In this document: positions 4,383 to 24,816 of the stretch, piece by piece
How positions within the stretch are numbered: position 1 is the stretch's first letter
How the letters are laid out: each line of letters starts with the position of its first letter
Source: Candidatus Saccharimonas aalborgensis
GTDB taxonomy: Bacteria; Patescibacteriota; Saccharimonadia; Saccharimonadales; Saccharimonadaceae
Direction: 5' to 3'
DNA length: 32,000 bases
Assembly (NCBI RefSeq): GCF_000392435.1
Contig: NC_021219.1
Span: 90,001 to 122,000, forward strand
The notes under the pieces: model-generated
Told to the model about the DNA's origin: nothing
Databases searched by the model: none
What the model saw: the letters and a program-made list of their open reading frames with translations, nothing else
Made by a program: the position numbers and the translations under genes

Positions 4383-5294
4383 TCAGCGTACAGCCTTTCC
4401 AGTACTCCCAAAGGCGGCAATCTTTTCCTCGACAACTGCCTGAACTGCCTCGTAGACTGTCGGCATCAGTTTCACGACGGCATACTCATCGGGGTTTTCC
4501 TGTAACACTTTGACAAGCGTATCGCGGAATACTATCCGCATATCAGTATTGATATTGATCTTGCTAACACCCGCTTTGCTGGCTTCCTCGAAGTAATTCA
4601 GAGGTGTGCCTGATCCTCCATGCAAGCTAATTTGGCAGTCAATTGTCTCTCTAATGCGAGCCAGCAACTCGAGATCGAGTTGTTTTGGCACATCATATTT
4701 GCCATGCAAATTGCCTATGGCTGCCGCGAAGGTATCAATTCCTGTCGCATCGACAAACGCCTTGGCGGTTTCAGGTGTTGAGAAGGTTTTTTTGATTTCT
4801 TCGTAATCAATTCCCTCGTGGTGGACATTGCTCCCGCCCGCAAAATAGTGTGGCTCACTCTCAACGAGTGCCCCCGTGAACTTTGCATATTCCACGACTT
4901 CACGAGTTTTTTGTATGATTTCTTCTTCGGATGCATCGTGATTTGCCTGGGAGATATCAATGTGGATGAATTCAAACCCAGCGTCAATTGCCCGCTTACA
5001 GGCCTCGACCGAGGGACTATGGTCGAGGTTTATGTAGATTTCTATGCCATACTCGTCTCGATAGTTATCAACCATATCGCGAATATTCTCGAGACCAAGT
5101 GCCTCAACTTCACCATGGCTGACTTCGACGAGTACGGGAGCCGTGAGTTTTTGGGCTGCTCGACAGACAGCGATCAGTGTTTCTTGGTTATCAATATTAA
5201 ACGCGCCGACCGCAAATCCCTGCTGACGACTTCGCTGCATCAAATGCCGTGCACGAATCGTCCGATCACGGATTTCGCTGATTGTCAGTCCCAT
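4383..5294 (-). CDS. fba: Class II fructose-/ketose-bisphosphate aldolase
   Basis: 303 aa. 'GFAVGAFNIDNQETL', 'INLDHS', 'SLHGGSG' and 'KININTD' are typical of class II (metal-dependent) FBA/tagatose-bisphosphate aldolases. Confidence 0.9.
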   Translation of the reverse strand: MGLTISEIRDRTIRARHLMQRSRQQGFAVGAFNIDNQETLIAVCRAAQKLTAPVLVEVSHGEVEALGLENIRDMVDNYRDEYGIEIYINLDHSPSVEACKRAIDAGFEFIHIDISQANHDASEEEIIQKTREVVEYAKFTGALVESEPHYFAGGSNVHHEGIDYEEIKKTFSTPETAKAFVDATGIDTFAAAIGNLHGKYDVPKQLDLELLARIRETIDCQISLHGGSGTPLNYFEEASKAGVSKININTDMRIVFRDTLVKVLQENPDEYAVVKLMPTVYEAVQAVVEEKIAAFGSTGKAVR

Positions 5295-5301
5295 TGTCTC
5301 G

Positions 5302-5310
5302 CCCCCCCCC
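5302..5310 (-). repeat. Homopolymer G9 (C9 on the plus strand) occupying the Shine-Dalgarno position of fba
   Basis: Plus strand reads ...ctcg ccccccccc tgtag... On the minus strand the G9 run ends 7 nt before the fba ATG (5292-5294). Confidence 0.9.
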
Positions 5311-5414
5311 TGTAGAAGTTGTTATGCTTATCTGTTATATAGTATACCACCCGCATCCCACAATTAAACCATTGATTTGTACATAAAATGTAAGAAATTA
5401 CTACACCGCATTGA

Positions 5415-6686
5415 TCATGATTGAGCACGTATAATTCGATCTACACTAGGAAGAAACTTCTTAGGAGCAGATATATGCGTGTGCCGCGGCTGAGTAGAGG
5501 CGTGAGCTATGATGGCGTCAATGGCCGCGCAGACTTCTGGGATAGTGACATCCCGAGCACCCTCGACGAGCGTTTCGATCGAAACTGGCGCCCAGCCAAG
5601 TTCAAGCGTATCCATGTGCAGTGCGCTTCGCTCCTCGATACCATCGAGCGTGCGCAGTAACATACCGAGATGCCCCGCACGTTTTGCGTCGAGTAAGGCA
5701 GGCAAGTATCCCGCCGAATCGACTTCAAATAATTGCCGTTGCAGGCGTCGGATGGGGCGCACGTTTTTTGCACTCGCCTCAGTGTATGCCAAAAGTGTCT
5801 GCGCTCCAGGTGCCGTAGTTTCGGACAACAGCAGGCTACTGCCATAGGCGAGCCCGCGTTTCTCACGTATCTCTTGACTCAGCCAACGTTCCATGGCATC
5901 CATAGCAATTCGATAGGCAGGGTCATACGAAAAGAACATTTCTTCTAGCTCGCGAGAGAGTGGCAGGCTTTCGGTTAAGTAAGCGCTTTCCCCTCGAGGC
6001 AAGATAAGTCCACTCGATGCCGTATTGATACGTACATTCAACGCTCTTCTCTTTTTGTCAGTCGTATCCCCTAGTGGGGCATCGAAATATTGCTCAACTG
6101 ACTCAACTACCTCTTCGTGCGAGAATGCACCTACTGCCACCACTGCCATAGCGCGCACCCGGTAGTAACGAGACCAGAAGTCTCGCAACATGTCGGCAGA
6201 GAACATTGGCTGGCGATAGCCTATGATCGGCCGCGCGACCGAACTACCAAAGAGCGCATACGAAGCCGCCATATCATGCTTAGTCTCAGGGGTCAACGAA
6301 CTCAGTCTCTCTTCTTCGATGATCGACATTTCTTTTGCAACGGCATCGACAGGAAACGTAGGATGGAGCATTACCTGGCTTAGATAGCGCATCAACGGGT
6401 CGAGGCGCTCACCCTGCGCATGATAGGCAGTTTGGACATTGGTAGTATACGCGTTTGTTGTAAAACCATGTGCATCGACAAAATGCTCCGCTGCCTCAGC
6501 ATCGATAAATTCATCTGTTCCAAGATGAAGCGCGTGCTCAAGCGCATGCGCCTTGCCGGCATCTCGTTTCGGTCCTTCAAGTCCCCCTATACCTACGTGG
6601 ACATGGACAAGACCAGTGTGAGCACCAGGCATGTGATCGGTATAAACAGTGAGGCCGTTTTGGAGGCGGCTTGACTCAATAGACAT
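5415..6686 (-). CDS. M16 (pitrilysin/insulinase) family zinc peptidase
   Basis: 423 aa. Inverted zinc motif HxxEH present ('AHALEHALHLGTDEF'), with two-domain M16 length and organisation. Confidence 0.8.
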   Translation of the reverse strand: MSIESSRLQNGLTVYTDHMPGAHTGLVHVHVGIGGLEGPKRDAGKAHALEHALHLGTDEFIDAEAAEHFVDAHGFTTNAYTTNVQTAYHAQGERLDPLMRYLSQVMLHPTFPVDAVAKEMSIIEEERLSSLTPETKHDMAASYALFGSSVARPIIGYRQPMFSADMLRDFWSRYYRVRAMAVVAVGAFSHEEVVESVEQYFDAPLGDTTDKKRRALNVRINTASSGLILPRGESAYLTESLPLSRELEEMFFSYDPAYRIAMDAMERWLSQEIREKRGLAYGSSLLLSETTAPGAQTLLAYTEASAKNVRPIRRLQRQLFEVDSAGYLPALLDAKRAGHLGMLLRTLDGIEERSALHMDTLELGWAPVSIETLVEGARDVTIPEVCAAIDAIIAHASTQPRHTHISAPKKFLPSVDRIIRAQS

Positions 6687-15090: not shown

Positions 15091-15786
15091 ATGTTAATTA
15101 TCGGTCATCGCGGAGCAAAAGGTCTCGCACCCGAAAATACGCTTGCCGCATTGCAGGCTGGAGTCGATGCTGGTGCCGACATGCTTGAATGTGACGTACG
15201 GCTGACAAAAGATAACCAGTTGGTTATCATTCACGATTCTCGTTTGATGCGTACACACCGCCAGCTCGTTGCCGTGAGCGGACTTACCCTTGCTGAGCTA
15301 CAGGAGCGAACTCCCGACATGCCAGTTCCAACGCTCAGAGAAGCACTCGATGCTTATTTTGGGAAAATCATACTCAATATTGAAATCAAAAGCCGCGGAG
15401 CAGGCAAAGCAGTCGTGGCGCTCCTCGCAAAAGACTACATAACACGACCTCAGGACTGGGACACTATCCTCCTGTCTTCTTTCCACGTGGGTGAACTTCG
15501 CTCGATACGCCGCGCATCACAGCGAGCCAATATTGCACTACTCCACCGAGAAAACCCCTTTACCTTCATTGCTTTTGAACGCAGTTTACGACTTTCGGCA
15601 GTCGGTTTTCATCGATTGACCATAAACTCATTCGCCCTCGATATTGCTCATCGAATCGGGTTATTTACCTATGTCTATACCGTCAACCGGCCCGAGGCCG
15701 CCCTGCGACTCGAAGCCCAAGGGGTGGATGGTATCGTTACCAACTATCCCGATATACTTGTTGAGGTATTAAACAATTCAAACTAG
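15091..15786 (+). CDS. Glycerophosphodiester phosphodiesterase (GDPD family)
   Basis: 231 aa. 'IIGHRGAKGLAPENTLAA', 'ECDVRLTKDNQLVIIHD' and 'NIEIK' are GDPD hallmarks. Confidence 0.85.
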   Translation: MLIIGHRGAKGLAPENTLAALQAGVDAGADMLECDVRLTKDNQLVIIHDSRLMRTHRQLVAVSGLTLAELQERTPDMPVPTLREALDAYFGKIILNIEIKSRGAGKAVVALLAKDYITRPQDWDTILLSSFHVGELRSIRRASQRANIALLHRENPFTFIAFERSLRLSAVGFHRLTINSFALDIAHRIGLFTYVYTVNRPEAALRLEAQGVDGIVTNYPDILVEVLNNSN

Positions 15787-16739
15787 TTTTTTGCGGATGA
15801 TAGAGCATCGAGATATTCTCGAATATTGAGGGCAGCCGTGGCTCCTTCACCAACCGCACTGGCTACTTGCATTGTCGCCCCACTGCGAACATCGCCGCTG
15901 GCAAAGATACCGGGTACGGCCGTCTCGAGATGTTCATTGGTGATGATATGCCCGATCGGGTCAAGTTCAACCCCGCTCCCAACCAAAAACTCTGTGTTCG
16001 GTTTGAGACCAATGAATACAAAGGTACCGTCGACCTGTAGCTCATCAGACTGACCCGCAGAGACTGTACGAACAGTCATTGCCTTGGTTTCGCTATCAAC
16101 GCTAATCTCAGTTGGTACCGTTTGTAAATGAATGGTAACCTTACCAGCATCAACGTACTTCTGCAATTCATCTTGCAATACCTGGCTCGCTTTGACCGTA
16201 CTACGTACCAACAGATCTATGTGACTCGCAAACCGAGTCAGAAAGATTGCTTCCTGCACGCCAGAGTTGCCACCGCCGACCACTACGAGCCGCTTATCAC
16301 GATAAAACGCGCCATCACAGGTTGCGCAGTAGTGCACGCCGCGTCCATAATACTCAGCTTCACCCGGAATCCCCAATTTGTTGTAGTCACTTCCTGTTGC
16401 AATCAGTACGCTCTGTGCTTTGACCTCTTCACCATCAACTGTCAACACAATGCCGTCTTGGCCACGACGCACCGCAGATACGTCACCGTACTTGATGACT
16501 GCGCCGAAGCGCTCGGCTTGTTTTTGCAGATTATCTGCCAAGGTCAGCCCTTCAATGCCATCGGGAAACCCAGGGTAATTGTCGACTTTATCGGTGATCG
16601 CTGCAAGTCCACCCACAACTGCCTTTTCGTACAATACTGTCTCGATGTCCTCACGTGTCGTATAAATTGCGGCAGCGAGAGCACTCGGCCCGGCACCGAT
16701 CATCACAACATCATGGATAGTTTCATCGGTCATCATCAC
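15783..16739 (-). CDS. trxB: Thioredoxin-disulfide reductase
   Basis: 318 aa. 'VVMIGAGPSALAAAIY', redox-active 'CATCDG', 'VVGGGNSGVQEA' and 'GIFASGD'. Confidence 0.9.
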   Translation of the reverse strand: MMMTDETIHDVVMIGAGPSALAAAIYTTREDIETVLYEKAVVGGLAAITDKVDNYPGFPDGIEGLTLADNLQKQAERFGAVIKYGDVSAVRRGQDGIVLTVDGEEVKAQSVLIATGSDYNKLGIPGEAEYYGRGVHYCATCDGAFYRDKRLVVVGGGNSGVQEAIFLTRFASHIDLLVRSTVKASQVLQDELQKYVDAGKVTIHLQTVPTEISVDSETKAMTVRTVSAGQSDELQVDGTFVFIGLKPNTEFLVGSGVELDPIGHIITNEHLETAVPGIFASGDVRSGATMQVASAVGEGATAALNIREYLDALSSAKN

Positions 16740-16748
16740 CCTCCTTAC

Positions 16749-17276
16749 TTATTGTCCCAGCCCCTGAAATAGCTCCATCGGATAGGTTGGCGGCGTTATT
16801 TCAGCCGCCGCAGGTATTGCCATCACAATAAATTTGAGTGGTGTGTTTGGCGGAATAACTTCATTACCCTGTTGGTCTTTTGTCCCCTGTTCTTTATACC
16901 CCTTATCTGAGGGGATGGTCAGCTCCCGCACGCCGCCGAGACGCATTCCCTTCATGCCTTCTTTCCAACCCTGGATTAAACTACTTGTTGCCAGGCCATC
17001 AATGGCAAGCGGTGACTTCAATTTGCCCGAGGCTGGGTCGATTGATTGCTCTTGGATTGTGCCACGCGGTAACCACAGAATATAGTAGGCGGCAAACTTC
17101 GTGGTATCCGTCACTTCCTCGCCGTCGCCGACAATAAGGTCTTGTGTCTGTAGTGTTTTATTGTTGCTTTCGATATCGTAGACACCAACTCTTGAGCCAA
17201 ACTGACTAAATGTCGAATAATATTTTGCCGAAAGTTCATCTGCCTGTGCAGCTTTCTGGGCCTGATATACTTTCAC
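16749..17276 (-). CDS. FKBP-type peptidyl-prolyl cis-trans isomerase domain protein
   Basis: 175 aa from GTG 17274-17276. 'LIVGDGEEV', 'YILWLPRGTIQEQS', 'LIQGWKEGMKGMRLGGVRELTIPSDKGYKEQG' and 'IPPNTPLKFIV' are typical of FKBP domains. The frame is open for 14 more codons upstream with no start codon. Confidence 0.8.
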   Translation of the reverse strand: MKVYQAQKAAQADELSAKYYSTFSQFGSRVGVYDIESNNKTLQTQDLIVGDGEEVTDTTKFAAYYILWLPRGTIQEQSIDPASGKLKSPLAIDGLATSSLIQGWKEGMKGMRLGGVRELTIPSDKGYKEQGTKDQQGNEVIPPNTPLKFIVMAIPAAAEITPPTYPMELFQGLGQ

Positions 17277-17434
17277 TTTTGCTTGGTAATCATTTTGTAC
17301 CTTTTGAGTCTTGCCGCATCATCTGATTGATTTTTTGTCGTCAATATCAGTGCCGCAAATGACCCAATCGTCCCCACAACGGTGACGATTAAAATAATCA
17401 TAATGCCTAGTCGCTGGCTCTTTGTTGTTGCCAC
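17273..17434 (-). CDS. 53-aa membrane-anchor ORF, possibly the detached 5' part of the FKBP gene
   Basis: GTG 17432-17434 with AAAGGGA 5 nt upstream. Translation: (M)ATTKSQRLGIMIILIVTVVGTIGSFAALILTTKNQSDDAARLKRYKMITKQK*. The TGA (17273-17275) overlaps the GTG of the FKBP ORF (GTGA). Confidence 0.4.
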   Translation of the reverse strand: MATTKSQRLGIMIILIVTVVGTIGSFAALILTTKNQSDDAARLKRYKMITKQK

Positions 17435-17476
17435 ATCTGTCCCTTTCGTTTGTTGAGCTCGTTTTAGTATAGCAAA

Positions 17477-18673
17477 TTAGCGACGTTTTTTCACCTTGAT
17501 CGTAGGGGCAAAGTAATCGTCTTCGTAGACTTTTGCAGCTCGCCAGGCCCCCAGTGAGGTACCAAGCGGTAACACCTCACTGTATCCGACGAGATCAGCA
17601 ACTCGACGGATTAGTCCACCAATCCACCCACAAAATCGAAGCCAGCGCCACTCAACAATTGCCCACCTAGCTCCAACCGGTATAGCCTGCACCGGCAAAA
17701 TAGCCTTATACGGCTTCATTGGTCGTCCAGATGTCTGCCTCTTTAGATTACGCGCAACAGTTCGCGCATCATGAATTGCCGTCTGGGCAAGACCAGTGAA
17801 CGGTGTTGCCGCATTGTCACCGATGACATAGATATCCTTATTTGCCTGCAAATATTGATCAACTTCGACGCGACCATTTTTTGCCAGTCGAAACACCGAT
17901 GGATTGTTAGCAAAAAATGGATGATTCGTTACTCCAGAGGTCCAAATGACGGTATGACTATCGATCGAAGCACCGCTCACAATTAATTCATGAGCCGTCT
18001 CCCTTTCGACTTTTTTACCGGTTTCTACACGCACACCAAGTTTCTTTAGACGTCGCGTTACCCTACGACTTGTCTGCTCTGATAGCCGAGGTAAGATTCG
18101 CGGCATCGCTTCTACCAGGCGAATATTTACCGTACGTTCTCTGATATGATACCGCTTCATGAGTCGCTTCAGATACGTTCCCATCGCCGCCGATAATTCA
18201 ACGCCGGTTGGACCGCCACCGATAATAATGTAGTTTTTATCGAGATGATGATTCTCGGCGATGTCAATCGAAAGCCGTCGTTTTAACCGCTTGATCTCTT
18301 CTTCGGACTTAATGCCGTAGGCGTAGGTCTCTAGTCCTGGGATACCAAAATAGGTTGTCACGACACCAATCGCAATAATACACACTTCATAATGATAAGA
18401 GGTTCCCGACTCACCGCCGACAACTTTCTGCTCTACATCGATCGATGTGATAGTGTCGATATACACTTCGACATTACTACTCTCGGCGAAAATCTCGCCC
18501 AATGGAGCCCAAGATTCAAGATGACTATGTCCAGTAGCGGAGCTATATAAGGTTGGGTAATACTGAAACTCTGTGCTATCTGAAATAAGCGTGATGTGAT
18601 TGCGGCTATCTTTTGACAACTCAAGTGCTGCCTTGATACCACCGAATCCGCCGCCAACAATTATAATATTCAT
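17477..18673 (-). CDS. ndh: Type II NADH dehydrogenase (NDH-2, FAD-dependent pyridine nucleotide-disulfide oxidoreductase)
   Basis: 398 aa. Two dinucleotide folds, 'IIIVGGGFGGIKAA' and 'IIIGGGPTGVELSA'; 'YVIGDNA'; length and order typical of NDH-2. Confidence 0.85.
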   Translation of the reverse strand: MNIIIVGGGFGGIKAALELSKDSRNHITLISDSTEFQYYPTLYSSATGHSHLESWAPLGEIFAESSNVEVYIDTITSIDVEQKVVGGESGTSYHYEVCIIAIGVVTTYFGIPGLETYAYGIKSEEEIKRLKRRLSIDIAENHHLDKNYIIIGGGPTGVELSAAMGTYLKRLMKRYHIRERTVNIRLVEAMPRILPRLSEQTSRRVTRRLKKLGVRVETGKKVERETAHELIVSGASIDSHTVIWTSGVTNHPFFANNPSVFRLAKNGRVEVDQYLQANKDIYVIGDNAATPFTGLAQTAIHDARTVARNLKRQTSGRPMKPYKAILPVQAIPVGARWAIVEWRWLRFCGWIGGLIRRVADLVGYSEVLPLGTSLGAWRAAKVYEDDYFAPTIKVKKRR

Positions 18674-18715
18674 CGCTACTTACAAAAAACGTACTATTAT
18701 TTTTTTCACTGGTAG

Positions 18716-18721
18716 TATAAT
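18716..18721 (+). promoter_or_regulatory. Candidate -10 box (TATAAT) for cydA in the ndh/cydA divergent region
   Basis: A perfect TATAAT lies ~40 nt upstream of the cydA ATG in a 78-87 nt AT-rich divergent intergenic region. No convincing -35. Confidence 0.3.
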
Positions 18722-18760
18722 AGCAGATGAAAGCATAAGCGTAAAAGGAAATTGGTCACT

Positions 18761-20023
18761 ATGGATGGATTCTTAGCAGCGCGTTCACTGATTGGACATT
18801 CGCTTGCATTTCATATTTTGATCGTTGCGCTCTCCATCGGCCTCCCGGTGCTGCTTAGTTTATTTGAGTGGTACGCGTGGCGCAAAAATAGCGAACGTCT
18901 CAGAGCATTTGTGCGACTGCTCGCGAAATGGACCGCCGTGTTTGTGATCGGTGGTATTTTCACCGGAACAATCATTGCACTTCAAATGTCAACGCTTTGG
19001 GCCCCATTTATGAATGAAGTACGTCCGACTGTCGGGAAGTTCTTTCAGCTCGAGGGCTACATGTTTCTTATTGAGGCAGCGTTCTTGTCATGGTATCTCG
19101 GTACGATGAAGCAAACTGGCACGCTCCGTCATTTTTTGATAAGCATTCCTATTAGTATCGGTTCTATAGGTTCGGCATTTTTCATTACTGCAGTTAACGC
19201 GTTCATGAATAACTCGACAGCGACATTGACGTCGACAACTATCAATGAGGTGTCCCACTCAGTTGCATCCTATATTTTTGCGACAACGTTATTAGTGCTC
19301 GCGTATGTTGTGTGGCGCAATCTCCACAAACAGCCTGCTTCTACGAAAACATTTCTAAATTGGACCATCAAGCGGCTCGTCGCTGTTTCAGCTATTTTAC
19401 TGGTAACACTCGCATTGTTAGGTCATCAATCTGCCGTCAATATTGCCGAGACACAGCCCGCCAAACTCGCCGCCATCGAGCTACTCGACAAAACACAGTC
19501 AAACGCACCGCTCCGTATCGGTGGTGACATCGATGCCAACGGTAAAGCCGAGGGAGGTATTGTACTACCCGGTATGCTGAGCCTCCTCGCAGGATATTCA
19601 ACTGCCTATGAGGTAAAAGGGCTAGACCAGGTACCGCGCTACCAATGGCCCCCGCTCATTGTCCATCTCTTATTCGATACAAAGATGGCACTTGTTGGCC
19701 TCTCGTCACTTCTCGTTCTTGGTGCGATATTCTTTCTGTGGCGCAAGGGGTCGTTTCCTCGCTGGTTTAGCATCACCTTTATCCCTCTTAGTGTCGTCGG
19801 AATGATTATGATGGAGTTAGGCTGGTTTATCACTGAACTCGGGCGTCAAACCTGGACTGTTGCCGGAAAACAAACTACCGCAGCAGCCTTTACGCATGGT
19901 GCAACTATCGGCAACAGTCTGTTTATCTTTATCCTCCTCTTTGCTGTGCTTAGCTGTGCAACCGCTTTCGCACTCGCTTATACGACTAGGCATTGGCGCG
20001 CCACGGAGAAAACATCATGGTAG
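18761..20023 (+). CDS. cydA: Cytochrome bd-type quinol oxidase subunit I (CydA), short Q-loop form
   Basis: 'LAFHILIVALSIGLP' (N-terminal His), 'NIAETQPAKLAAIE' and 'GWFITELGRQTWTV' correspond to the conserved CydA blocks (QPxKLAAxE, GWxxxExGRQPW). The track ORF begins at TTG 18752. ATG 18761 is preferred because AAAGGAA lies 11 nt upstream. Confidence 0.85.
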   Translation: MDGFLAARSLIGHSLAFHILIVALSIGLPVLLSLFEWYAWRKNSERLRAFVRLLAKWTAVFVIGGIFTGTIIALQMSTLWAPFMNEVRPTVGKFFQLEGYMFLIEAAFLSWYLGTMKQTGTLRHFLISIPISIGSIGSAFFITAVNAFMNNSTATLTSTTINEVSHSVASYIFATTLLVLAYVVWRNLHKQPASTKTFLNWTIKRLVAVSAILLVTLALLGHQSAVNIAETQPAKLAAIELLDKTQSNAPLRIGGDIDANGKAEGGIVLPGMLSLLAGYSTAYEVKGLDQVPRYQWPPLIVHLLFDTKMALVGLSSLLVLGAIFFLWRKGSFPRWFSITFIPLSVVGMIMMELGWFITELGRQTWTVAGKQTTAAAFTHGATIGNSLFIFILLFAVLSCATAFALAYTTRHWRATEKTSW

Positions 20024-20547
20024 AAACACTTTACATCCTCATACTTATTCCGGTGCTTTTGTACCTATTCTTTTCGGTGTTGGAGATTTGGCTGGTATAT
20101 CGGATTGCACTGCGCAATCACAGTCGATCCTTATTATTTATCCAGGGTTCAACCGAGCTTACTCATACACTGCTCGTATTTGCTTATGCGCAGTTTATGG
20201 TGACGTTTTCGAGTCTCCTCATAGATATTGGTGGCGAGCTCTATTGGCCGATCGCGCTACTTATGGCAACCCTATTACTTCGCGGCTCTACCTACCTTTT
20301 GCTCTTTTATCGTGAGCGGCCGCCGCGCTGGATGTATCTTGTACTCCTCGGCACCTACCTCGTGGGGGTTACTTCACTTGTCTGGGCGCTATTGATTGTT
20401 ATTCCCGCTATCGCAACAAAGGGCTTCATACCCGACACCACCAACATCGATCTCGTACTCACCGTTGGCTTACCTGCACTCGCCTTTGTCATGATCCCGA
20501 TCATTGCTGTTTACAAGAGTGCTTTTGCCGCTCTTCGTAAAAAATGA
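20017..20547 (+). CDS. Polytopic membrane protein (176 aa, ~5 TM) coupled to cydA, in the position normally held by cydB
   Basis: ATG 20017-20019 is preceded by GGAG (20005-20008) and overlaps the cydA end (stop 20021-20023). About five hydrophobic helices. It is half the length of a canonical CydB (~330-380 aa) and I recognise no CydB motifs. Confidence 0.55.
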   Translation: MVETLYILILIPVLLYLFFSVLEIWLVYRIALRNHSRSLLFIQGSTELTHTLLVFAYAQFMVTFSSLLIDIGGELYWPIALLMATLLLRGSTYLLLFYRERPPRWMYLVLLGTYLVGVTSLVWALLIVIPAIATKGFIPDTTNIDLVLTVGLPALAFVMIPIIAVYKSAFAALRKK

Positions 20548-20560
20548 TCATATATTAACT

Positions 20561-20589
20561 TTGACTTTTTGTACACTTAAGATTATGAT
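20561..20589 (+). promoter_or_regulatory. Strong sigma70-type promoter (TTGACT - 17 nt - TATGAT)
   Basis: TTGACT at 20561-20566 and TATGAT at 20584-20589 with a 17-nt spacer, plus a second TATAAT at 20595-20600. Followed by the hairpin CTCATC-AGCC-GATGAG (20601-20616). Confidence 0.5.
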
Positions 20590-20643
20590 TATCATATAAT
20601 CTCATCAGCCGATGAGGTTATCTCGAGAGAGGAGTGTCATAGC

Positions 20644-20847
20644 ATGGCAGACTGTTACTATCACGGTTACTCAGGCGGTCCCGGGAGGTGTATACACTGC
20701 GACAGGGAACAGCAGGCCAATCTGGAACCTGGCACCCTGGATGGTTACGACCAAGAGGTCACCACTCACGACTGGCGACATGGTCGGATTGGTCGGATCG
20801 GCCAACCCGGCATTCCGCCCCAGCCCAACACCCCGCCTTCTCGTTAA
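20644..20847 (+). CDS. Candidate 67-aa Cys/His- and Pro-rich small protein (alternatively part of a structured RNA)
   Basis: A GAGAGAGGAG SD (20625-20634) lies 9 nt before the ATG. Translation: MADCYYHGYSGGPGRCIHCDREQQANLEPGTLDGYDQEVTTHDWRHGRIGRIGQPGIPPQPNTPPSR*. The terminator lies 26 nt after the stop. The region is markedly more GC-rich than its flanks, and the other two plus frames are also open here, so coding is not certain. Confidence 0.3.
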   Translation: MADCYYHGYSGGPGRCIHCDREQQANLEPGTLDGYDQEVTTHDWRHGRIGRIGQPGIPPQPNTPPSR

Positions 20848-20873
20848 CCCCGCACCGGCACATCCCCAAAGAA

Positions 20874-20906
20874 GGGGCTTCGCGAACGATGCGGGGCCCC
20901 TTTTTT
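20874..20906. terminator. Rho-independent terminator, plausibly bidirectional
   Basis: GGGGCTTCGC-GAACGAT-GCGGGGCCCC: a 10-bp stem including two G-U pairs, with a 7-nt loop, followed by TTTTTT (20901-20906). On the minus strand the same stem follows the ABC exporter stop (20915-20917) and is followed by TTCTTT. Confidence 0.8.
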
Positions 20907-20914
20907 AATTTCGT

Positions 20915-22696
20915 CTACGCGGCGATATCAAACTCTGCTAGTTTCTTTTTGGCGGCCTCAGAGGTGCCAAGTTGGAGCGCAAGGAGTTGACCGTAAATAC
21001 CCTTTGTCTTACTCAACTGAGCGGGAGTACCGATCTCATCCACCTTGCCATTCTTGAGTGTGACGATCATATCTACCTCTGCAATGGTACTAAGACGGTG
21101 CGCGATCACTAGCGTTGTGCGATCTTTCATCAGTCTATCGAGCGCTTGCTGCACCTCGTGTTCGGCACGACTATCAAGACTGCTGGTGGCTTCATCGAGA
21201 ATGAGAATCGGAGCGTCTTTGAGCAAAGCACGCGCGATCGAAATACGCTGTTTTTGACCGCCACTCAATTTGATACCACGCTCACCTATTTCAGTGTCGT
21301 AGCCATTCGGAAATGCTGAGATGAAATCATGCGCGTTAGCAGCCTTGGCCGCTTTTTCAATTTCTTTATCGGTTGCATCAGGTTTCGCATACGAAATATT
21401 CTCACGCACCGTTCCACTAAATAACGCCGCATCCTGAAATACCGTTGCAATATTCTTTCGCAAGCTGTGACGCGACACCATACTAATGTCTTGTCCGTCG
21501 ATCACGACGCGTCCTGCAGTGGGTTGGTAGAGCCCCATCAGAAGATTTGAGATCGTCGACTTACCACCTCCAGACTCACCGACAAGTGCCAGCTTCGTCC
21601 CGGGTTCAATCGAAAAACTGATATTTTTTAGTACCTGATTTCCCTTAGCTCCATACGAAAAATTAACTCCCCTATACTCAATCGCCGCCTTTTGGATCAG
21701 TAGCTCCGCGCTACTTGCTTCCGGCTCGGGCGATTCCTGAAGTGCCGCCAAGTAATCACGACTATTCGCCACGGCGCGCTGATAGCTGTCTACAAAGAAG
21801 CTAAGACCGTTGAGCGGCATACTTGCCTGCTGAATCAAAACAACGAGCATGGCGATATCACCAACCGAAAGCTGTCCCTGTCCAGCCAAATAAAAAATCA
21901 CGAGCAGACTCAGCGCACGAATAATGCCAAAGATCATGCCCCTCCAAAAATTCATCGTATGCCAGAACCGTGACTGCTCTCTGGTGAGAGCGATCATACT
22001 GCTAACCTCACCATCAAAAAGTGCGTATTCGCGTCGTTCCGTCACAAAACTTTTGACAAGCCGGATCTGCCCAACCACTTCCGCAAAGCGACCGCTCGCA
22101 GTATCAAAATGTTGGTTTTTTTGTTTCTCGAGTTCCTGCCACTTTCCACTTGTGCGTGCTGTCAGATAGAGATTCGCGGGTATCAGTATGGCGAATAGTA
22201 TCGCTAATTGCCATCCATAAAATGCCAATACCGCCAGTGTTAATGTCGTGGTCAGTAACATCTGCAGTAGGTTGTTTGAGAAAAACTGAAAGAAATTGGT
22301 AATATCTGTGATCGCTCGGCTGAGTCGATTAATGATTTTACCTGTCACTTCATTGTCAAAATAGTGCTGAGGAAGTGTCAAAAGATGACGATAGTATGCC
22401 GATGAAAGCTGGTGGCGAGCACGAATTGCCAACTGATCACCCACATACCCACTCACATCAGTAATAAGCGCGCTGAGAAGTGCAACACCAGCCAATGCGC
22501 TCCCGAACCAAATGATATGATTCCAGTCAAAAGCGACATGATGTGCGTTGATAGCTACCACCCAATCAGTTGCAAGTTTGATGACATACGGCGGCACAAA
22601 GGAAAGCAGCGAGCTAATTAACGCTAAGGAGCCGATGACAACCATATAGCGTCCGAGTCCAGTGGTGAAGCCAAAGATTGTTCGAATTGATTTCAT
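20915..22696 (-). CDS. ABC exporter, fused permease/ATPase (MsbA/multidrug-exporter type)
   Basis: 593 aa. N-terminal six-helix TMD, Walker A 'GESGGGKST', signature 'LSGGQKQR', Walker B 'ILILDEATS', H-loop 'IAHRL'. Confidence 0.9.
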   Translation of the reverse strand: MKSIRTIFGFTTGLGRYMVVIGSLALISSLLSFVPPYVIKLATDWVVAINAHHVAFDWNHIIWFGSALAGVALLSALITDVSGYVGDQLAIRARHQLSSAYYRHLLTLPQHYFDNEVTGKIINRLSRAITDITNFFQFFSNNLLQMLLTTTLTLAVLAFYGWQLAILFAILIPANLYLTARTSGKWQELEKQKNQHFDTASGRFAEVVGQIRLVKSFVTERREYALFDGEVSSMIALTREQSRFWHTMNFWRGMIFGIIRALSLLVIFYLAGQGQLSVGDIAMLVVLIQQASMPLNGLSFFVDSYQRAVANSRDYLAALQESPEPEASSAELLIQKAAIEYRGVNFSYGAKGNQVLKNISFSIEPGTKLALVGESGGGKSTISNLLMGLYQPTAGRVVIDGQDISMVSRHSLRKNIATVFQDAALFSGTVRENISYAKPDATDKEIEKAAKAANAHDFISAFPNGYDTEIGERGIKLSGGQKQRISIARALLKDAPILILDEATSSLDSRAEHEVQQALDRLMKDRTTLVIAHRLSTIAEVDMIVTLKNGKVDEIGTPAQLSKTKGIYGQLLALQLGTSEAAKKKLAEFDIAA

Positions 22697-22767
22697 CTGA
22701 CTAGTATACTATGAAATACCTATTTGCCGAGACTCGTGCAGCCGCTACTAGCGTCAATACGCCACTT

Positions 22768-24261
22768 TTACTGACTCACTTCACATAGTTTCCGAAAAAT
22801 CTCGACCATAGCGAGAGTATCGAGTGCACAATACTCACGCAGCTCGTCAAATACCACACGTCGCTCACACTCATCCATAGATAACGAAAGTACCGCCTCC
22901 ATCCACCGCTTCTGGGCAACTGCACCATCAGCAATCGCCATGTTTCGATAGGAAAGCTCAGGGACGAGTGCCGGTAGAACCTTTTTTATGCTCGCGCTTC
23001 CGCCTAACTGAATATCAGCATAATAACCTTTATAGAAAAGTTCTATTGGGTCGCGCATTCGTTCGTTAAGAGCCAAAAGGTCTGCACTATACTCTGACAC
23101 CAGGCGCGCCATCGTTTCATTGCAGCGCTGCTCAAAACCCATACTCCACGCTACAATAGAGCCGTTATTACCAATTGACGAAAGTAGGTGTGGCACCAAC
23201 TGCCCAGCCGGCATATCGGCCATCTCGTGTAAATACATCGCATGCCGAACCTCACTATCAGGAGAATCAAGCACATGGAGTGAATATTGAAACGGTACTT
23301 GTTCATACGGTTTCACGCCATCATAAGGAGGCACAACACCAGCTGCTGTTTCGTAATCGAGAAAATACAGCGGGTACTCAAGCGTAGAGAGCCACTCGCG
23401 AATCTTTTGTTTATCGATGTTTATGCCGCCCGCTTTTGCTGCTTCGATGTGCGCGACAAGGGCTGGCCGCTCGACAAGGTGCGGTGGAATATCTGCGAGC
23501 TTTGAAATGCCCAATTCTTCACAAGTCGCAAGCAACGCCGGGCTAATAAGCACACTGCTGTAGATCGAGTCCTCACCGCTAGGCCAGAGTGTTTGATGGA
23601 TCTCTAGCCAGCCTCTTAGACCTTGTCTACTCGCAAGCGACGGTGAAGGATCGGGCATTGTCGGACGGAGCACTGTGGCAAGCGCATGCGCAGCAGCGGT
23701 CGCAGTAGAGACCTCCAGCGCTCTCACTTTTTCGGTCACGTCAGTAACGCTACTTAGTTCCAGTGGATCAATATCACCATGACGCACAAAGGAAGGATTG
23801 ACGTGAATCACCGATATATTTCGCGCCTCGTAACCGGCGCCTTCCAAGACAAACAACTGAAATGCTAGATCATAAAGGTGTTCGGGCTTGACGCGCGTGC
23901 TTGATTTTATCTCGTACAGATCAACAACATTCTGGTCAACGACATCAACAATATCACAAATGAACGTAAACGGACCATGCTCAAACCGACCCTGAAAAAT
24001 CGTCCGTGCTCCACCATCTAGTGCCTCCCTGGTGCGCTCAGTAAGTGTACGATACGACGACCAGTTGCTAAACCCAAGGTCAACCGCGCCCGCAAAGCGC
24101 TGCTCAACAAGAGGCTCAAAAGCACTTCCCGCGTCGAATCGTTGTTGCTGCTGAGCGGTCAGAGGAGGCAGACGTTCCAGCTGATGCTTTTTGAGCCACA
24201 ACCAAGCGGGATGCACACGAGACAACATATAATCGGACTTTGTGATGGACACCTCTGACAT
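22768..24261 (-). CDS. DUF2779-like protein: N-terminal PD-(D/E)xK nuclease-like fold plus C-terminal RNase-H-like region
   Basis: 497 aa. 'ICDIVD...(10 aa)...DLYEIKSS' fits D...ExK. 'YFLDYETAAGVVPPYDGVKPYEQVPFQYSLHV' matches the block I remember as characteristic of DUF2779 (FxDFE(T/S)...P..G..PYQQIPFQ.S.H). Confidence 0.7.
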   Translation of the reverse strand: MSEVSITKSDYMLSRVHPAWLWLKKHQLERLPPLTAQQQQRFDAGSAFEPLVEQRFAGAVDLGFSNWSSYRTLTERTREALDGGARTIFQGRFEHGPFTFICDIVDVVDQNVVDLYEIKSSTRVKPEHLYDLAFQLFVLEGAGYEARNISVIHVNPSFVRHGDIDPLELSSVTDVTEKVRALEVSTATAAAHALATVLRPTMPDPSPSLASRQGLRGWLEIHQTLWPSGEDSIYSSVLISPALLATCEELGISKLADIPPHLVERPALVAHIEAAKAGGINIDKQKIREWLSTLEYPLYFLDYETAAGVVPPYDGVKPYEQVPFQYSLHVLDSPDSEVRHAMYLHEMADMPAGQLVPHLLSSIGNNGSIVAWSMGFEQRCNETMARLVSEYSADLLALNERMRDPIELFYKGYYADIQLGGSASIKKVLPALVPELSYRNMAIADGAVAQKRWMEAVLSLSMDECERRVVFDELREYCALDTLAMVEIFRKLCEVSQ

Positions 24262-24279
24262 GCCCTCAGTATAGCAAAT

Positions 24280-24816
24280 CTAGCAGGCAGCGATCAGCGC
24301 ACTCACAGTAGCGTCGATTTTTTTGGAGACAGCTTCGTCATCCTGAACTGCTCCATCGACTGCGAGATCTTGCATAAATTGTAAGCCGGCTATTGGCTCA
24401 ATAAGCTTCATGTGCAACACTTCATTCATCAACTCTAGATGTTGATAGGCATGCTTTGCAGCATAAAATCCGTAGCCGACAAATGCCACAGGCTTACCCT
24501 CCCACTCTTTATAAATCCAGTCGATCGCGTTTTTCTGAACACCACTTAGGCTATGGTTGTATTCTGGCGAAACCAATACCACGCCATCAGCTTCTTTTAC
24601 CATCGTCGTCCACTGTAATACTGATTGATGTTCTGGACTAAATCCCTCCATAGAAGGTGGTAGGGCGCTGTCAAAAAAAGGTAACGCTAACTTACTGAGA
24701 TCGGCGACAGATACTACTGCGTCTTTTTCTTGCAATTTCTTAACTACATACGGTACCACCTGTTGACCCGCGCTATTTGGTCGTACGCTCCCTGTTACAA
24801 CGACTATTTTTACCAT
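24280..24816 (-). CDS. NAD(P)H-dependent FMN reductase family oxidoreductase
   Basis: 178 aa. 'KIVVVTGSVRPNSAG' and 'VLVSPEYNHSLSGVQKNAIDW' are typical of the flavodoxin-like FMN_red family. Confidence 0.8.
   Translation of the reverse strand: MVKIVVVTGSVRPNSAGQQVVPYVVKKLQEKDAVVSVADLSKLALPFFDSALPPSMEGFSPEHQSVLQWTTMVKEADGVVLVSPEYNHSLSGVQKNAIDWIYKEWEGKPVAFVGYGFYAAKHAYQHLELMNEVLHMKLIEPIAGLQFMQDLAVDGAVQDDEAVSKKIDATVSALIAAC

What the first reader, a model, noticed from the sequence alone, without database searches (positions are those of the whole stretch)
20561..20906. GC-rich orphan transcription unit with a strong promoter and terminator: 67-aa Cys/His/Pro-rich protein or unannotated structured RNA
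**Location**
- The unit lies between the cydA partner gene and the convergent ABC exporter.

**Signals, in order**
- A near-consensus promoter: TTGACT, 17 nt, TATGAT.
- A 5' hairpin CTCATC-AGCC-GATGAG.
- An SD (GAGAGAGGAG) and an ATG.
- About 200 nt that are visibly more G+C-rich than the surrounding DNA.
- A 10-bp-stem, T6 terminator.

**Why coding is uncertain**
- All three plus-strand frames are open across the GC-rich part (track ORFs 20612..20908, 20644..20847, 20688..20990). No minus frame is open. That is unexpected by chance for this genome.

**Internal structure**
- Long-range complementarity: GGCGG-TC-CCGGG (20674-20685) with CCCGG-CATT-CCGCC (20806-20819).
- A perfect 10-nt palindrome GTGTATACAC (20688-20697).
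- A tandem GGTCGGAT(T/C) repeat (20782-20799), which encodes GRIGRIG in the SD-linked frame.

**If it is a protein**
- The SD-linked frame gives a protein with a C4/H7/C16/H18/C19 cluster and a Pro-rich tail. I recognise no family.

**Inference**
- It is either a novel small metal-binding protein, a structured ncRNA, or a fragment acquired from a high-GC donor.
Basis: seen in the sequence. Interest (0 to 1): 0.65.

Follow-up and report, generated by a model that had tools for sequence, protein, structure and literature searches.

The report
Small zinc-knuckle protein gene cassette
The GC-rich orphan unit is a real, strongly conserved gene for a 67-residue, probably zinc-binding protein of an undescribed family shared by Saccharibacteria and large phage-like genomes; it is not a structured RNA, and it was inserted in this lineage as a self-contained promoter-gene-terminator cassette.

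Summary
The protein-versus-RNA question is settled for protein.

- **Coding evidence.** A 96%-identical strain (L014) has 18 substitutions in the ORF. Sixteen fall on codon position 3 of the 67-aa frame (dN/dS 0.03). Distant homologues keep MADCYYHGYSGGPG unchanged with saturated synonymous sites.
- **No RNA evidence.** Rfam finds nothing. Without the terminator the RNA folds no better than shuffles. The palindrome and the two open off-frames are lost in the close strain.
- **The family.** There are 63 representatives at 50% identity among 1.84 billion proteins. They are 48-121 aa long, with one of 307 aa. D3, C4, H7, G8, Y9, S10, C16 and C19 are invariant and start at the N-terminus; the tails vary. 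No Pfam, NCBIfam or PHROG family matches.
- **Where it occurs.** Members are orphan genes in Saccharibacteria chromosomes or sit in phage-like arrays of small genes, three times inside tRNA arrays.
- **Insertion.** Related Saccharibacteria have no intergenic space at this site, so window 20548-20914 is a lineage-specific insertion.
- **Function (inferred).** A zinc-stabilised docking module. The partner is unknown.

Interest is moderate to low.

The parts
20548..20914 (+). The whole inserted cassette: promoter, 5' UTR, 67-aa gene and terminator. It lies between the stop of the cydA-partner gene (20547) and the stop of the convergent ABC exporter (20915).
   Evidence: In relatives L023, L024 and L025 the two convergent stops are between 4 nt overlapping and 8 nt apart, and there is no small gene. 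The cassette is present in the window, L022 (CP065017.1) and L014. It has no terminal repeats or target-site duplication.
20561..20589 (+). Sigma-70-type promoter: TTGACT, 17 nt, TATGAT.
   Evidence: 10 of 12 consensus matches. The hexamers and their spacing are identical in L022 and L014. It lies in a 33% GC stretch. Activity was not tested.
20596..20621 (+). 5'-proximal stem-loop of the predicted mRNA (arms 20596-20606 and 20611-20621, loop AGCC). It probably stabilises the transcript.
   Evidence: In L022 the 20600 T>C change turns a U-G pair into C-G. The role is inferred.
20626..20635 (+). Shine-Dalgarno sequence GAGAGAGGAG (core AGGAG at 20630-20634), 9 nt before the ATG.
   Evidence: Read from the sequence. 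Invariant in the three strains.
20644..20847 (+). Coding sequence of the 67-aa protein MADCYYHGYSGGPGRCIHCDREQQANLEPGTLDGYDQEVTTHDWRHGRIGRIGQPGIPPQPNTPPSR.
   Evidence: Against L014, 16 of 18 substitutions are at codon position 3 (P = 1.7e-6) and dN/dS is 0.029. Homologues were found.
20644..20709 (+). Conserved N-terminal module (codons 1-22). The putative metal ligands are C4, H7, C16 and C19. D3, G8, Y9 and S10 are invariant, and Y5, G11, P13, G14 and E22 are nearly invariant.
   Evidence: Alignment A2 of 52 sequences. Amino acids are unchanged while synonymous sites are saturated, and the Ser codon switches between TCN and AGY. AlphaFold2 on the trimmed sequence gives a beta hairpin (residues 3-4 and 8-9) plus a helix (17-24) at pLDDT 73.
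20868..20906 (.). Intrinsic terminator: a G+C-rich hairpin followed by T6. An A-rich run on its 5' side suggests it also terminates the convergent ABC exporter transcript.
   Evidence: 17 pairs, 8 of them G-C; I1. No substitutions relative to L014. Bidirectional use is inferred.

Best explanation
The unit is a monocistronic protein-coding cassette. A sigma-70-type promoter drives an mRNA that has a 5' stem-loop and a good Shine-Dalgarno sequence and ends at a strong intrinsic terminator.

**Product.** It encodes a 67-residue protein of an undescribed family. The first 22 residues, M-A-D-C-Y-Y-H-G-Y-S-G-G-P-G-x-C-x-x-C-x-x-E, most likely fold around one metal ion. The C4-x2-H7 knuckle lies in a beta hairpin, and C16-x2-C19 sits at the start of a short helix. 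This is a treble-clef or A20-like arrangement. The rest of the protein is a variable, largely disordered Gly/Pro/Arg-rich tail.

**Proposed mechanism (inferred).** The invariant N-terminal knuckle is a small rigid docking surface for a conserved macromolecular partner, either protein or nucleic acid. The tail is dispensable or tunes specificity.

**Origin.** The family is shared between Saccharibacteria chromosomes and large phage-like genomes. In this lineage the whole cassette was inserted between two convergent housekeeping genes, in the manner of a phage moron.

**Shown:** it is coding, it is under purifying selection, the family exists with its invariant residues, and the cassette is an insertion.

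**Inferred, with my rough odds:** metal binding about 0.7; a docking or regulatory role about 0.35; phage origin of the cassette about 0.4.
For: **Coding**
- Against the 96%-identical strain L014, 16 of 18 substitutions fall on codon position 3 of the 67-aa frame (P = 1.7e-6). Only two residues change, and dN/dS is 0.029, as low as in the flanking housekeeping genes (0.03-0.11).
- Against distant homologues, the first 13 codons show up to 10 synonymous and 0 non-synonymous differences, with TCN/AGY serine switches.

**Family**
- 52 clusters at 90% identity and 63 representatives at 50% identity among 1.84 billion proteins.
- The motif always starts at residue 1-2 of the mature reading frame.
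- D3, C4, H7, G8, Y9, S10, C16 and C19 are invariant.

**Fold**
- The trimmed AlphaFold2 model has pLDDT 73, with a hairpin plus a helix that starts at the CxxC.
- The best PDB sequence match is the Rabex-5 A20 zinc finger (E = 0.14; hhalign probability 58%).

**Stand-alone function**
- No neighbouring gene family is shared among about 15 independent loci.

**Phage link**
- L006 and L007 come from IMG/VR.
- L001 carries an endolysin and a dNMP kinase.
- L006, L009/L010 and L018 have the gene inside tRNA arrays, and in L009 a tmRNA gene follows it directly.
- L027 is an array of more than 30 small same-strand ORFs.

**Insertion**
- Synteny TrxR-FKBP-ndh-cydA-partner, then the convergent ABC exporter, is kept in L023, L024 and L025, with no more than 8 nt between the convergent stops and no small gene.

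**Signals**
-.
Against: - No transcript, peptide or metal measurement exists.
- The full-length AlphaFold2 model is poor (pLDDT 58), and Foldseek finds no structural neighbour.
- The A20 resemblance is below significance, and no Pfam zinc-finger model is matched.
- Predicted Cys/His knuckles in very small proteins do not always bind zinc (PMC11241148).
- No partner, and so no pathway, can be named.
- The cassette has no terminal repeats, and its non-coding parts match no other locus, so the insertion route and donor are unknown.
- Isolate phages (INPHARED) hold no homologue.
Confidence: 0.8

Rival explanations
1. The unit makes a structured non-coding RNA (or a dual-function RNA). The GC-rich body folds through the long-range GGCGG..CCGGG / CCCGG..CCGCC pairing, and the ORF is incidental.
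For: The unit has its own promoter and terminator.
Against: - No Rfam family matches, even at E up to 10.
- Without the terminator, z is +0.54 for the ORF and -0.24 for the UTR plus ORF. Homologues range from -1.8 to +1.0.
- Substitutions follow the codon phase, not base pairs.
- One arm of the pairing is the GGPG codons; the other lies in the non-conserved tail.
- The palindrome is broken in L014.
- Homologues share protein sequence but not nucleotide sequence beyond the first 14 codons or so.
Confidence: 0.02
2. The product is a ribosomally synthesised, post-translationally modified peptide precursor. The invariant N-terminal 22 residues would be a leader recognised by a maturase, the variable C-terminus would be the core peptide, and a neighbouring ABC transporter would export it.
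For: The N-terminus is invariant and the C-terminus hypervariable. An ABC exporter lies next to the gene in the window, and MacB/FtsX-type ABC systems lie next to it in L004 and L026.
Against: - No modifying enzyme (radical SAM, YcaO, LanM or similar) and no peptidase-domain exporter lies near any of about 15 independent loci, and no neighbour family is shared.
- The window's ABC exporter was at this site before the insertion, in relatives that lack the small gene.
- About half of the loci are phage-like arrays of small genes.
- The tails are hydrophilic and low in complexity, some ending in K/R runs, and some members carry a second zinc ribbon.
Confidence: 0.05
3. The segment is a decaying remnant of foreign DNA (a pseudogene or junk insertion) with no function in this genome.
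For: - It is a lineage-specific insertion.
- It has the highest GC in the window.
- GC3 is 0.60 against 0.44-0.54 in the neighbours.
- It is not among the genes on record for the CP065017.1 locus (L022).
Against: - dN/dS is 0.029 between two strains that both carry it.
- The reading frame, Shine-Dalgarno sequence, promoter and terminator are intact in three strains.
- The family is conserved.
Confidence: 0.03
4. A second, overlapping gene is encoded in one of the other open plus-strand frames (20612-20908 or 20688-20990).
For: Both off-frames are open, which is expected in only 0.2% of synonymous recodings.
Against: In L014 each off-frame gains a stop and shows 17 and 16 amino-acid differences. 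Most homologues have stops in both off-frames. Neither frame matches a Pfam family.
Confidence: 0.01

Closest known systems
A20-type zinc finger (Pfam PF01754), as in Rabex-5 (PDB 2fid, 2c7m)
   Same: Both have a short knuckle, then an aromatic/Gly/Pro loop, then G-x-C-x-x-C at the start of an acidic helix. Rabex-5 reads GYYGNPAWQGFCSKCWREE and this family reads GYSGGPG-x-CxxCxxE. It is the best PDB sequence match (E = 0.14), with hhalign probability 58%. The predicted hairpin plus helix is consistent with it.
   Different: The second ligand is His, not Cys. The spacer is 8 residues, not 11. No family member matches the Pfam model even at E up to 10. A20 fingers are eukaryotic ubiquitin-binding modules (my own knowledge), and no ubiquitin-like partner is evident here. 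This is a resemblance, not membership.
Zinc-finger micro-proteins of prokaryotes (for example the Haloferax volcanii C(P)XCG proteins HVO_2753 and HVO_0758)
   Same: Both are under 70 aa, are encoded as stand-alone genes, have four Cys/His ligands in two knuckles, have no enzymatic domain, and presumably act by binding a partner (PMC11241148 and PMC10716476).
   Different: There is no sequence relationship. The motif here is C-x2-H ... C-x2-C at the extreme N-terminus, not two C(P)XCG motifs. This family is confined to Saccharibacteria and phage-like contigs. Metal content is untested, and in that class it is not always zinc.
Phage morons and the promoter-early stem-loop (PeSL) cassettes of T4-type phages
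   Same: In both, a small ORF of unknown function carries its own strong sigma-70-type promoter and stem-loop terminator, lies between unrelated genes, and is absent from close relatives at the same site (PMC2839356; here). Family members also sit in phage-like plastic regions.
   Different: This copy is in a bacterial chromosome among housekeeping genes, with no prophage around it. Its non-coding parts are not repeated elsewhere in the window or in other loci, so PeSL-type recombination is not shown.
RiPP precursor peptides
   Same: Both have an invariant N-terminal segment followed by a hypervariable C-terminal segment, and some copies lie next to ABC transporters.
   Different: There is no maturase or conserved neighbour, the invariant segment looks like a metal site and not a leader helix, and many copies are in phage gene arrays.

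Membership tests
Unnamed 'MADCYYHGYSGGPG' small-protein family (defined here) | The N-terminal motif M(A)DC[YFL][YFWH]HGYSGGPG-x-C-x-x-C-x-x-E starts at residue 1-2. | tested here: met
   The window protein carries every invariant residue (D3, C4, H7, G8, Y9, S10, C16, C19) in alignment A2. Its close 99%-identical relative P0001 scores E = 2.2e-37 against the profile.
Unnamed 'MADCYYHGYSGGPG' small-protein family (defined here) | Short single-module protein (about 48-121 aa) with a variable hydrophilic tail. | tested here: met
   It is 67 aa with a Gly/Pro/Arg-rich tail. Its closest subgroup shares EVTTHDWRHGR.
A20-type zinc finger (PF01754) | Four Cys ligands spaced C-x2-4-C-x11-C-x2-C. | tested here: not met
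   The motif is C-x2-H-x8-C-x2-C in all 52 sequences.
A20-type zinc finger (PF01754) | A significant match to the family profile. | tested here: not met
   There is no zf-A20 hit for any of the 52 members at E up to 10. The PDB profile search gives E = 0.14 for Rabex-5. The hhalign probability is 58%.
A20-type zinc finger (PF01754) | Treble-clef-like fold with the last two ligands at the N-terminus of a helix. | tested here: inconclusive
   The trimmed AlphaFold2 model (pLDDT 73) has a hairpin at 3-4/8-9 and a helix at 17-24. Foldseek returns no neighbour.
Zinc-binding micro-proteins (functional class) | Binds one Zn(II) stoichiometrically through the four conserved Cys/His residues. | not testable with these tools
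   This needs purified protein with ICP-MS or ESI-MS. AlphaFold2 cannot decide it (PMC11241148).
Structured non-coding RNA (any Rfam family or a new one) | A covariance-model match, or folding energy beyond shuffles, or compensatory base changes. | tested here: not met
   Rfam finds nothing at gathering score, and the only match at E up to 10 is a terminator-like hit (E = 4.6). z is +0.54 for the ORF and -0.24 for the UTR plus ORF. Substitutions are codon-phased.
RiPP precursor | Encoded next to a cognate modifying enzyme and/or a dedicated peptidase-exporter. | tested here: not met
   No such gene appears at any locus, and no neighbour family is shared. The window's ABC exporter has no peptidase domain and predates the insertion.
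Phage moron / PeSL-type cassette | A small ORF flanked by its own promoter and terminator, present or absent between close relatives at one site. | tested here: met
   Signals by consensus scan and site comparison. Promoter and terminator activity were not measured.
Phage moron / PeSL-type cassette | Resides in a phage or prophage genome. | tested here: not met
   The window carries glycolysis and pentose-phosphate genes, RelA/SpoT, PheRS, cydA and ndh, with no phage genes. Other family members do sit in phage-like contigs.

The most novel reading that the evidence does not exclude
The family is a phage-derived effector that some Saccharibacteria have domesticated. Its invariant N-terminal metal knuckle would dock onto a component of the translation or tRNA machinery. 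This is suggested by three independent phage-like genomes that keep the gene inside their tRNA arrays, one of them directly next to a tmRNA gene. Alternatively it would dock onto a ubiquitin-like or Pup-like modifier, as an A20-like finger might. Either way it would be a new class of bacterial or phage micro-protein regulator in an ultra-small episymbiotic lineage.
Probability: 0.12. Interest if true: 0.6.

Novelty: new member of a known kind. Interest (0 to 1): 0.35.

Why it matters
**What the result settles.** The result turns an ambiguous 'RNA or protein?' orphan into a defined gene. It also defines a small, previously unnamed protein family with an unusually rigid N-terminal Cys/His motif.

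**Why the family is of some interest.**
- It is patchy and shared between Saccharibacteria (CPR/Patescibacteria) and large phage-like genomes.
- This copy arrived as a complete promoter-gene-terminator cassette.
- Saccharibacteria have tiny genomes with few accessory genes. A selected, well-signalled micro-protein acquired horizontally is therefore a reasonable candidate for phage-host or symbiont-host interaction studies.
- It is also a worked example of a real small gene that is not among the genes on record for the closest complete genome.

**Limits.** Uncharacterised small Cys/His proteins are common, and nothing here points to a new mechanism.

Tried and rejected
**RNA and tRNA searches**
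- Rfam at gathering score on the whole window, and at E up to 10 on 20450-21000, gave only a terminator-like ctRNA hit at E = 4.6.
- ARAGORN found no tRNA or tmRNA in the window.
- Folding z-scores with and without the terminator show no excess structure in the body.

**Protein-family searches on the ORF or on all 52 members**
- Pfam, NCBIfam and PHROGs gave nothing meaningful.
- Single weak hits (Fin, B-box, DZR, HMBD, RMF, C2HC) are isolated, fall below the cut-offs, and mostly lie in members' tails.

**Structure**
- The full-length AlphaFold2 model was too poor to use (pLDDT 58).
- Foldseek against the PDB found nothing for either model.

**Searches for a conserved neighbour or a donor**
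- An all-against-all comparison of ORFs from all loci found no shared neighbour.
- A search for terminal repeats or a target-site duplication at the cassette ends found none.
- The cassette's non-coding parts matched nothing in other loci or elsewhere in the window.
- A tblastn search of isolate phages and a blastn search of plasmids found no match.

**Other checks**
- The overlapping-gene idea for the other open frames was rejected using L014.
- A recent high-GC donor is not established. GC3 is 0.60 against 0.44-0.54 over only 68 codons, and homologues track the GC of their own genomes.
- Literature searches found no description of this family.

Full report
**1. The observation**

- The promoter is TTGACT (20561-20566), 17 nt, TATGAT (20584-20589), with 10 of 12 consensus matches.
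- The 5' hairpin extends to arms 20596-20606 and 20611-20621.
- The Shine-Dalgarno sequence GAGAGAGGAG (20626-20635) lies 9 nt before the ATG at 20644.
- A 17-pair hairpin followed by T6 lies at 20868-20906.
- G+C is 0.605 over 20644-20906, against a window mean of 0.488. The richest 250-nt stretch of the whole window starts at 20650.
- The complementary blocks, the 10-nt palindrome and the 9-nt tandem repeat are also present.
- All three plus-strand frames are open, and this is rare. It occurs in 0.2% of synonymous recodings of the same protein with this genome's codon usage, and in 1 of 726 windows inside local genes.

**2. Protein or RNA**

The evidence points to protein.
- A metagenome contig (L014, WBZP01002644.1) is 95.8% identical to window 15655-22978.
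- Within 20548-20914 it differs by 18 substitutions, all inside the ORF. Sixteen fall on codon position 3 of the 67-aa frame (P = 1.7e-6), and only G30S and D33G change the protein.
- dN/dS is 0.029, as low as for TrxR, ndh, cydA and the ABC exporter next to it (0.03-0.11).
- In the two other open frames the same substitutions give 17 and 16 amino-acid changes and introduce stop codons. The 'three open frames' are therefore a peculiarity of this strain and not an overlapping gene.
- Across distant homologues the first 13 codons (MADCYYHGYSGGP) show up to 10 synonymous and 0 non-synonymous differences, and the serine codon switches between TCN and AGY.

The RNA reading fails each test.
- Rfam gives nothing.
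- With the terminator removed, folding is no better than shuffles: z = +0.54 for the ORF and -0.24 for the UTR plus ORF. Homologues range from -1.8 to +1.0.
- The palindrome is broken in L014.
- One arm of the long-range pairing is simply the GGPG codons.

**3. The family**

- The 67-aa product has homologues: 4 in the first search, 52 clusters with a profile, and 63 representatives at 50% identity out of 1.84 billion proteins.
- They are 48-121 aa long, with one of 307 aa.
- The conserved module always starts at the first or second residue: M(A)DCYYHGYSGGPG-x-C-x-x-C-x-x-E. D3, C4, H7, G8, Y9, S10, C16 and C19 are invariant, and Y5, G11, P13, G14 and E22 are nearly so.
- What follows is a charged stretch and a variable tail. 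Some tails end in K/R runs, and a few members add a second Cys-rich ribbon.
- The window's subgroup shares EVTTHDWRHGR.
- No Pfam, NCBIfam or PHROG family matches. Sources name the proteins only 'hypothetical protein'.

**4. Fold and likely chemistry (inferred)**

- C-x2-H ... C-x2-C with invariant glycines is the pattern of a single tetrahedral metal site.
- AlphaFold2 on the first 35 residues gives pLDDT 73, with a beta hairpin carrying C4 and H7 and a helix beginning at C16/C19. The full-length model is poor.
- The best sequence match among solved structures is the A20 zinc finger of Rabex-5 (GYYGNPAWQGFCSKCWREE against GYSGGPG-x-CxxCxxE). It is not significant: E = 0.14 and hhalign probability 58%.
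- The ligand set and spacing differ from A20, and Foldseek finds nothing.
- Zinc binding is therefore likely but unproven. Comparable predicted fingers in micro-proteins are sometimes metal-free or bind another metal (PMC11241148).

**5. Where the gene lives**

- The window is ordinary Saccharibacteria chromosome. It carries glycolysis and pentose-phosphate genes, RelA/SpoT, pyrophosphatase, PheRS, ndh and cydA.
- It is 99.6% identical over 16018-24541 to L022, a stretch of CP065017.1, 'Candidatus Saccharibacteria bacterium'.
- Other cellular copies are in Saccharimonadia or Saccharibacteria MAGs (L004, L005, L008) and in chromosome-like contexts (L002, L003, L026).
- About half of the loci look like phage:
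  - L006 and L007 are IMG/VR contigs.
  - L001 has an endolysin and a dNMP kinase.
  - L011 and L027 are long runs of small same-strand ORFs.
  - In L006, L009/L010 and L018 the gene sits inside tRNA arrays. In L009 a tmRNA gene starts 7 nt after it.
- No neighbouring gene family is shared among about 15 independent loci, so the protein seems to act on its own.

**6. The cassette is an insertion**

- Three related genomes (L023; L024 = CP064995.1; L025), 63-70% identical in DNA, keep the order TrxR-FKBP-ndh-cydA-175-aa partner, then the convergent ABC exporter. Their two stop codons are between 4 nt overlapping and 8 nt apart, and there is no small gene.
- In the window's lineage, 367 nt (20548-20914) lie between those stops. 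They bring a promoter, the gene and a terminator that probably now serves both convergent transcripts.
- No terminal repeats or target duplication are visible. The non-coding parts match nothing else. Isolate phages and plasmids have no match.
- The architecture resembles a phage moron or the promoter/stem-loop cassettes that shuffle small ORFs in T4-type phages (PMC2839356), but that route is not demonstrated here.
- The GC excess is partly amino-acid composition: GC1 and GC2 are 0.65 and 0.53. It is partly GC3: 0.60 against 0.44-0.54. Over only 68 codons this is a weak sign of foreign origin.

**7. Mechanism and verdict**

- Best-supported reading: a well-expressed micro-protein whose invariant N-terminal metal knuckle docks on a conserved partner. 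The tail is variable.
- The family moves between Saccharibacteria and their (probable) phages.
- Coding status, selection, family and insertion are shown. Metal binding, the docking role and phage origin are inferred.
- Rivals carry little weight: ncRNA, RiPP precursor, decaying fragment and overlapping gene.
- It is a new member of the broad class of small Cys/His proteins. It is worth recording and annotating, but it does not point to a new mechanism.

Noticed in passing
L006 4001-4210; L009 5001-5198 (tmRNA 5205-5597); L010 2314-2511; L018 5001-5177: In three independent phage-like contigs the family gene lies inside tRNA gene arrays: 15, 11 and 9 tRNA or tmRNA genes within 8-10 kb. In L009/L010 a tmRNA gene follows it directly. 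This may hint at a translation-related role, or it may only reflect that these regions collect small accessory ORFs.
   Followed up: partly
window 22768-24261 (minus strand); the gap in L014 corresponds to window 22979-24219: The DUF2779 gene (with a weak Cas4-like nuclease hit) is missing from the 96%-identical strain L014. In relatives L024 and L025 its place is taken by an M48 peptidase, with an additional 88-aa ORF in L024 (L023 shows a different arrangement there). The stretch downstream of the cyd genes therefore varies in gene content.
   Followed up: partly
window 18752-20547: cydA (cytochrome bd subunit I, 423 aa) is followed by a 175-184-aa membrane protein with no Pfam match, not by a canonical CydB. 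That protein is conserved at 55-68% identity across many Saccharibacteria and overlaps the end of cydA. It may be a non-canonical partner subunit.
   Followed up: no
L022 4526-6751 (CP065017.1), equivalent to window 20915-22696: The ABC exporter ORF is intact in the window (593 aa). In L022 (CP065017.1), the 99.6%-identical genome, it is split into two open stretches of about 470 and 221 aa. Neither it nor the 67-aa gene is among the genes on record there. This suggests a frameshift or an assembly error in that record.
   Followed up: partly
window 20694-20790: All 18 differences from L014 in the cassette cluster in 97 nt in the middle of the ORF (dS 0.46, against 0.09-0.31 in neighbouring genes). 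The first 50 nt of the ORF, the last 57 nt and the terminator are identical. This may be a recombination tract from a divergent allele.
   Followed up: partly
window 20584-20600; L014 about 4940-4960; L022 about 4580: L014 has a 6-nt duplication (ATTATC) just after the -10 hexamer. L022 (CP065017.1) has T>C at 20600, which turns a U-G pair of the 5' hairpin into C-G and destroys an alternative TATAAT. Both changes leave TTGACT-17-TATGAT intact.
   Followed up: yes
L004 4301-6414; L026 1686-3730: MacB/FtsX-type ABC transporter pairs lie next to the family gene in two chromosomal loci, and a different ABC exporter lies next to it in the window. This is probably coincidence, because the window's exporter predates the insertion, but it was not tested statistically.
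   Followed up: no
P0032, P0066, P0085; L018 5001-5177: Some family members carry a second Cys-rich module after the N-terminal knuckle. In P0032, P0066 and P0085 it reads LPAGSPM(H/Y)(Y/F)(Y/D).x.CGE...LPE...C. In the L018 member it is a C2HC-like finger, with Pfam E = 2.5e-4, below the cut-off.
   Followed up: no
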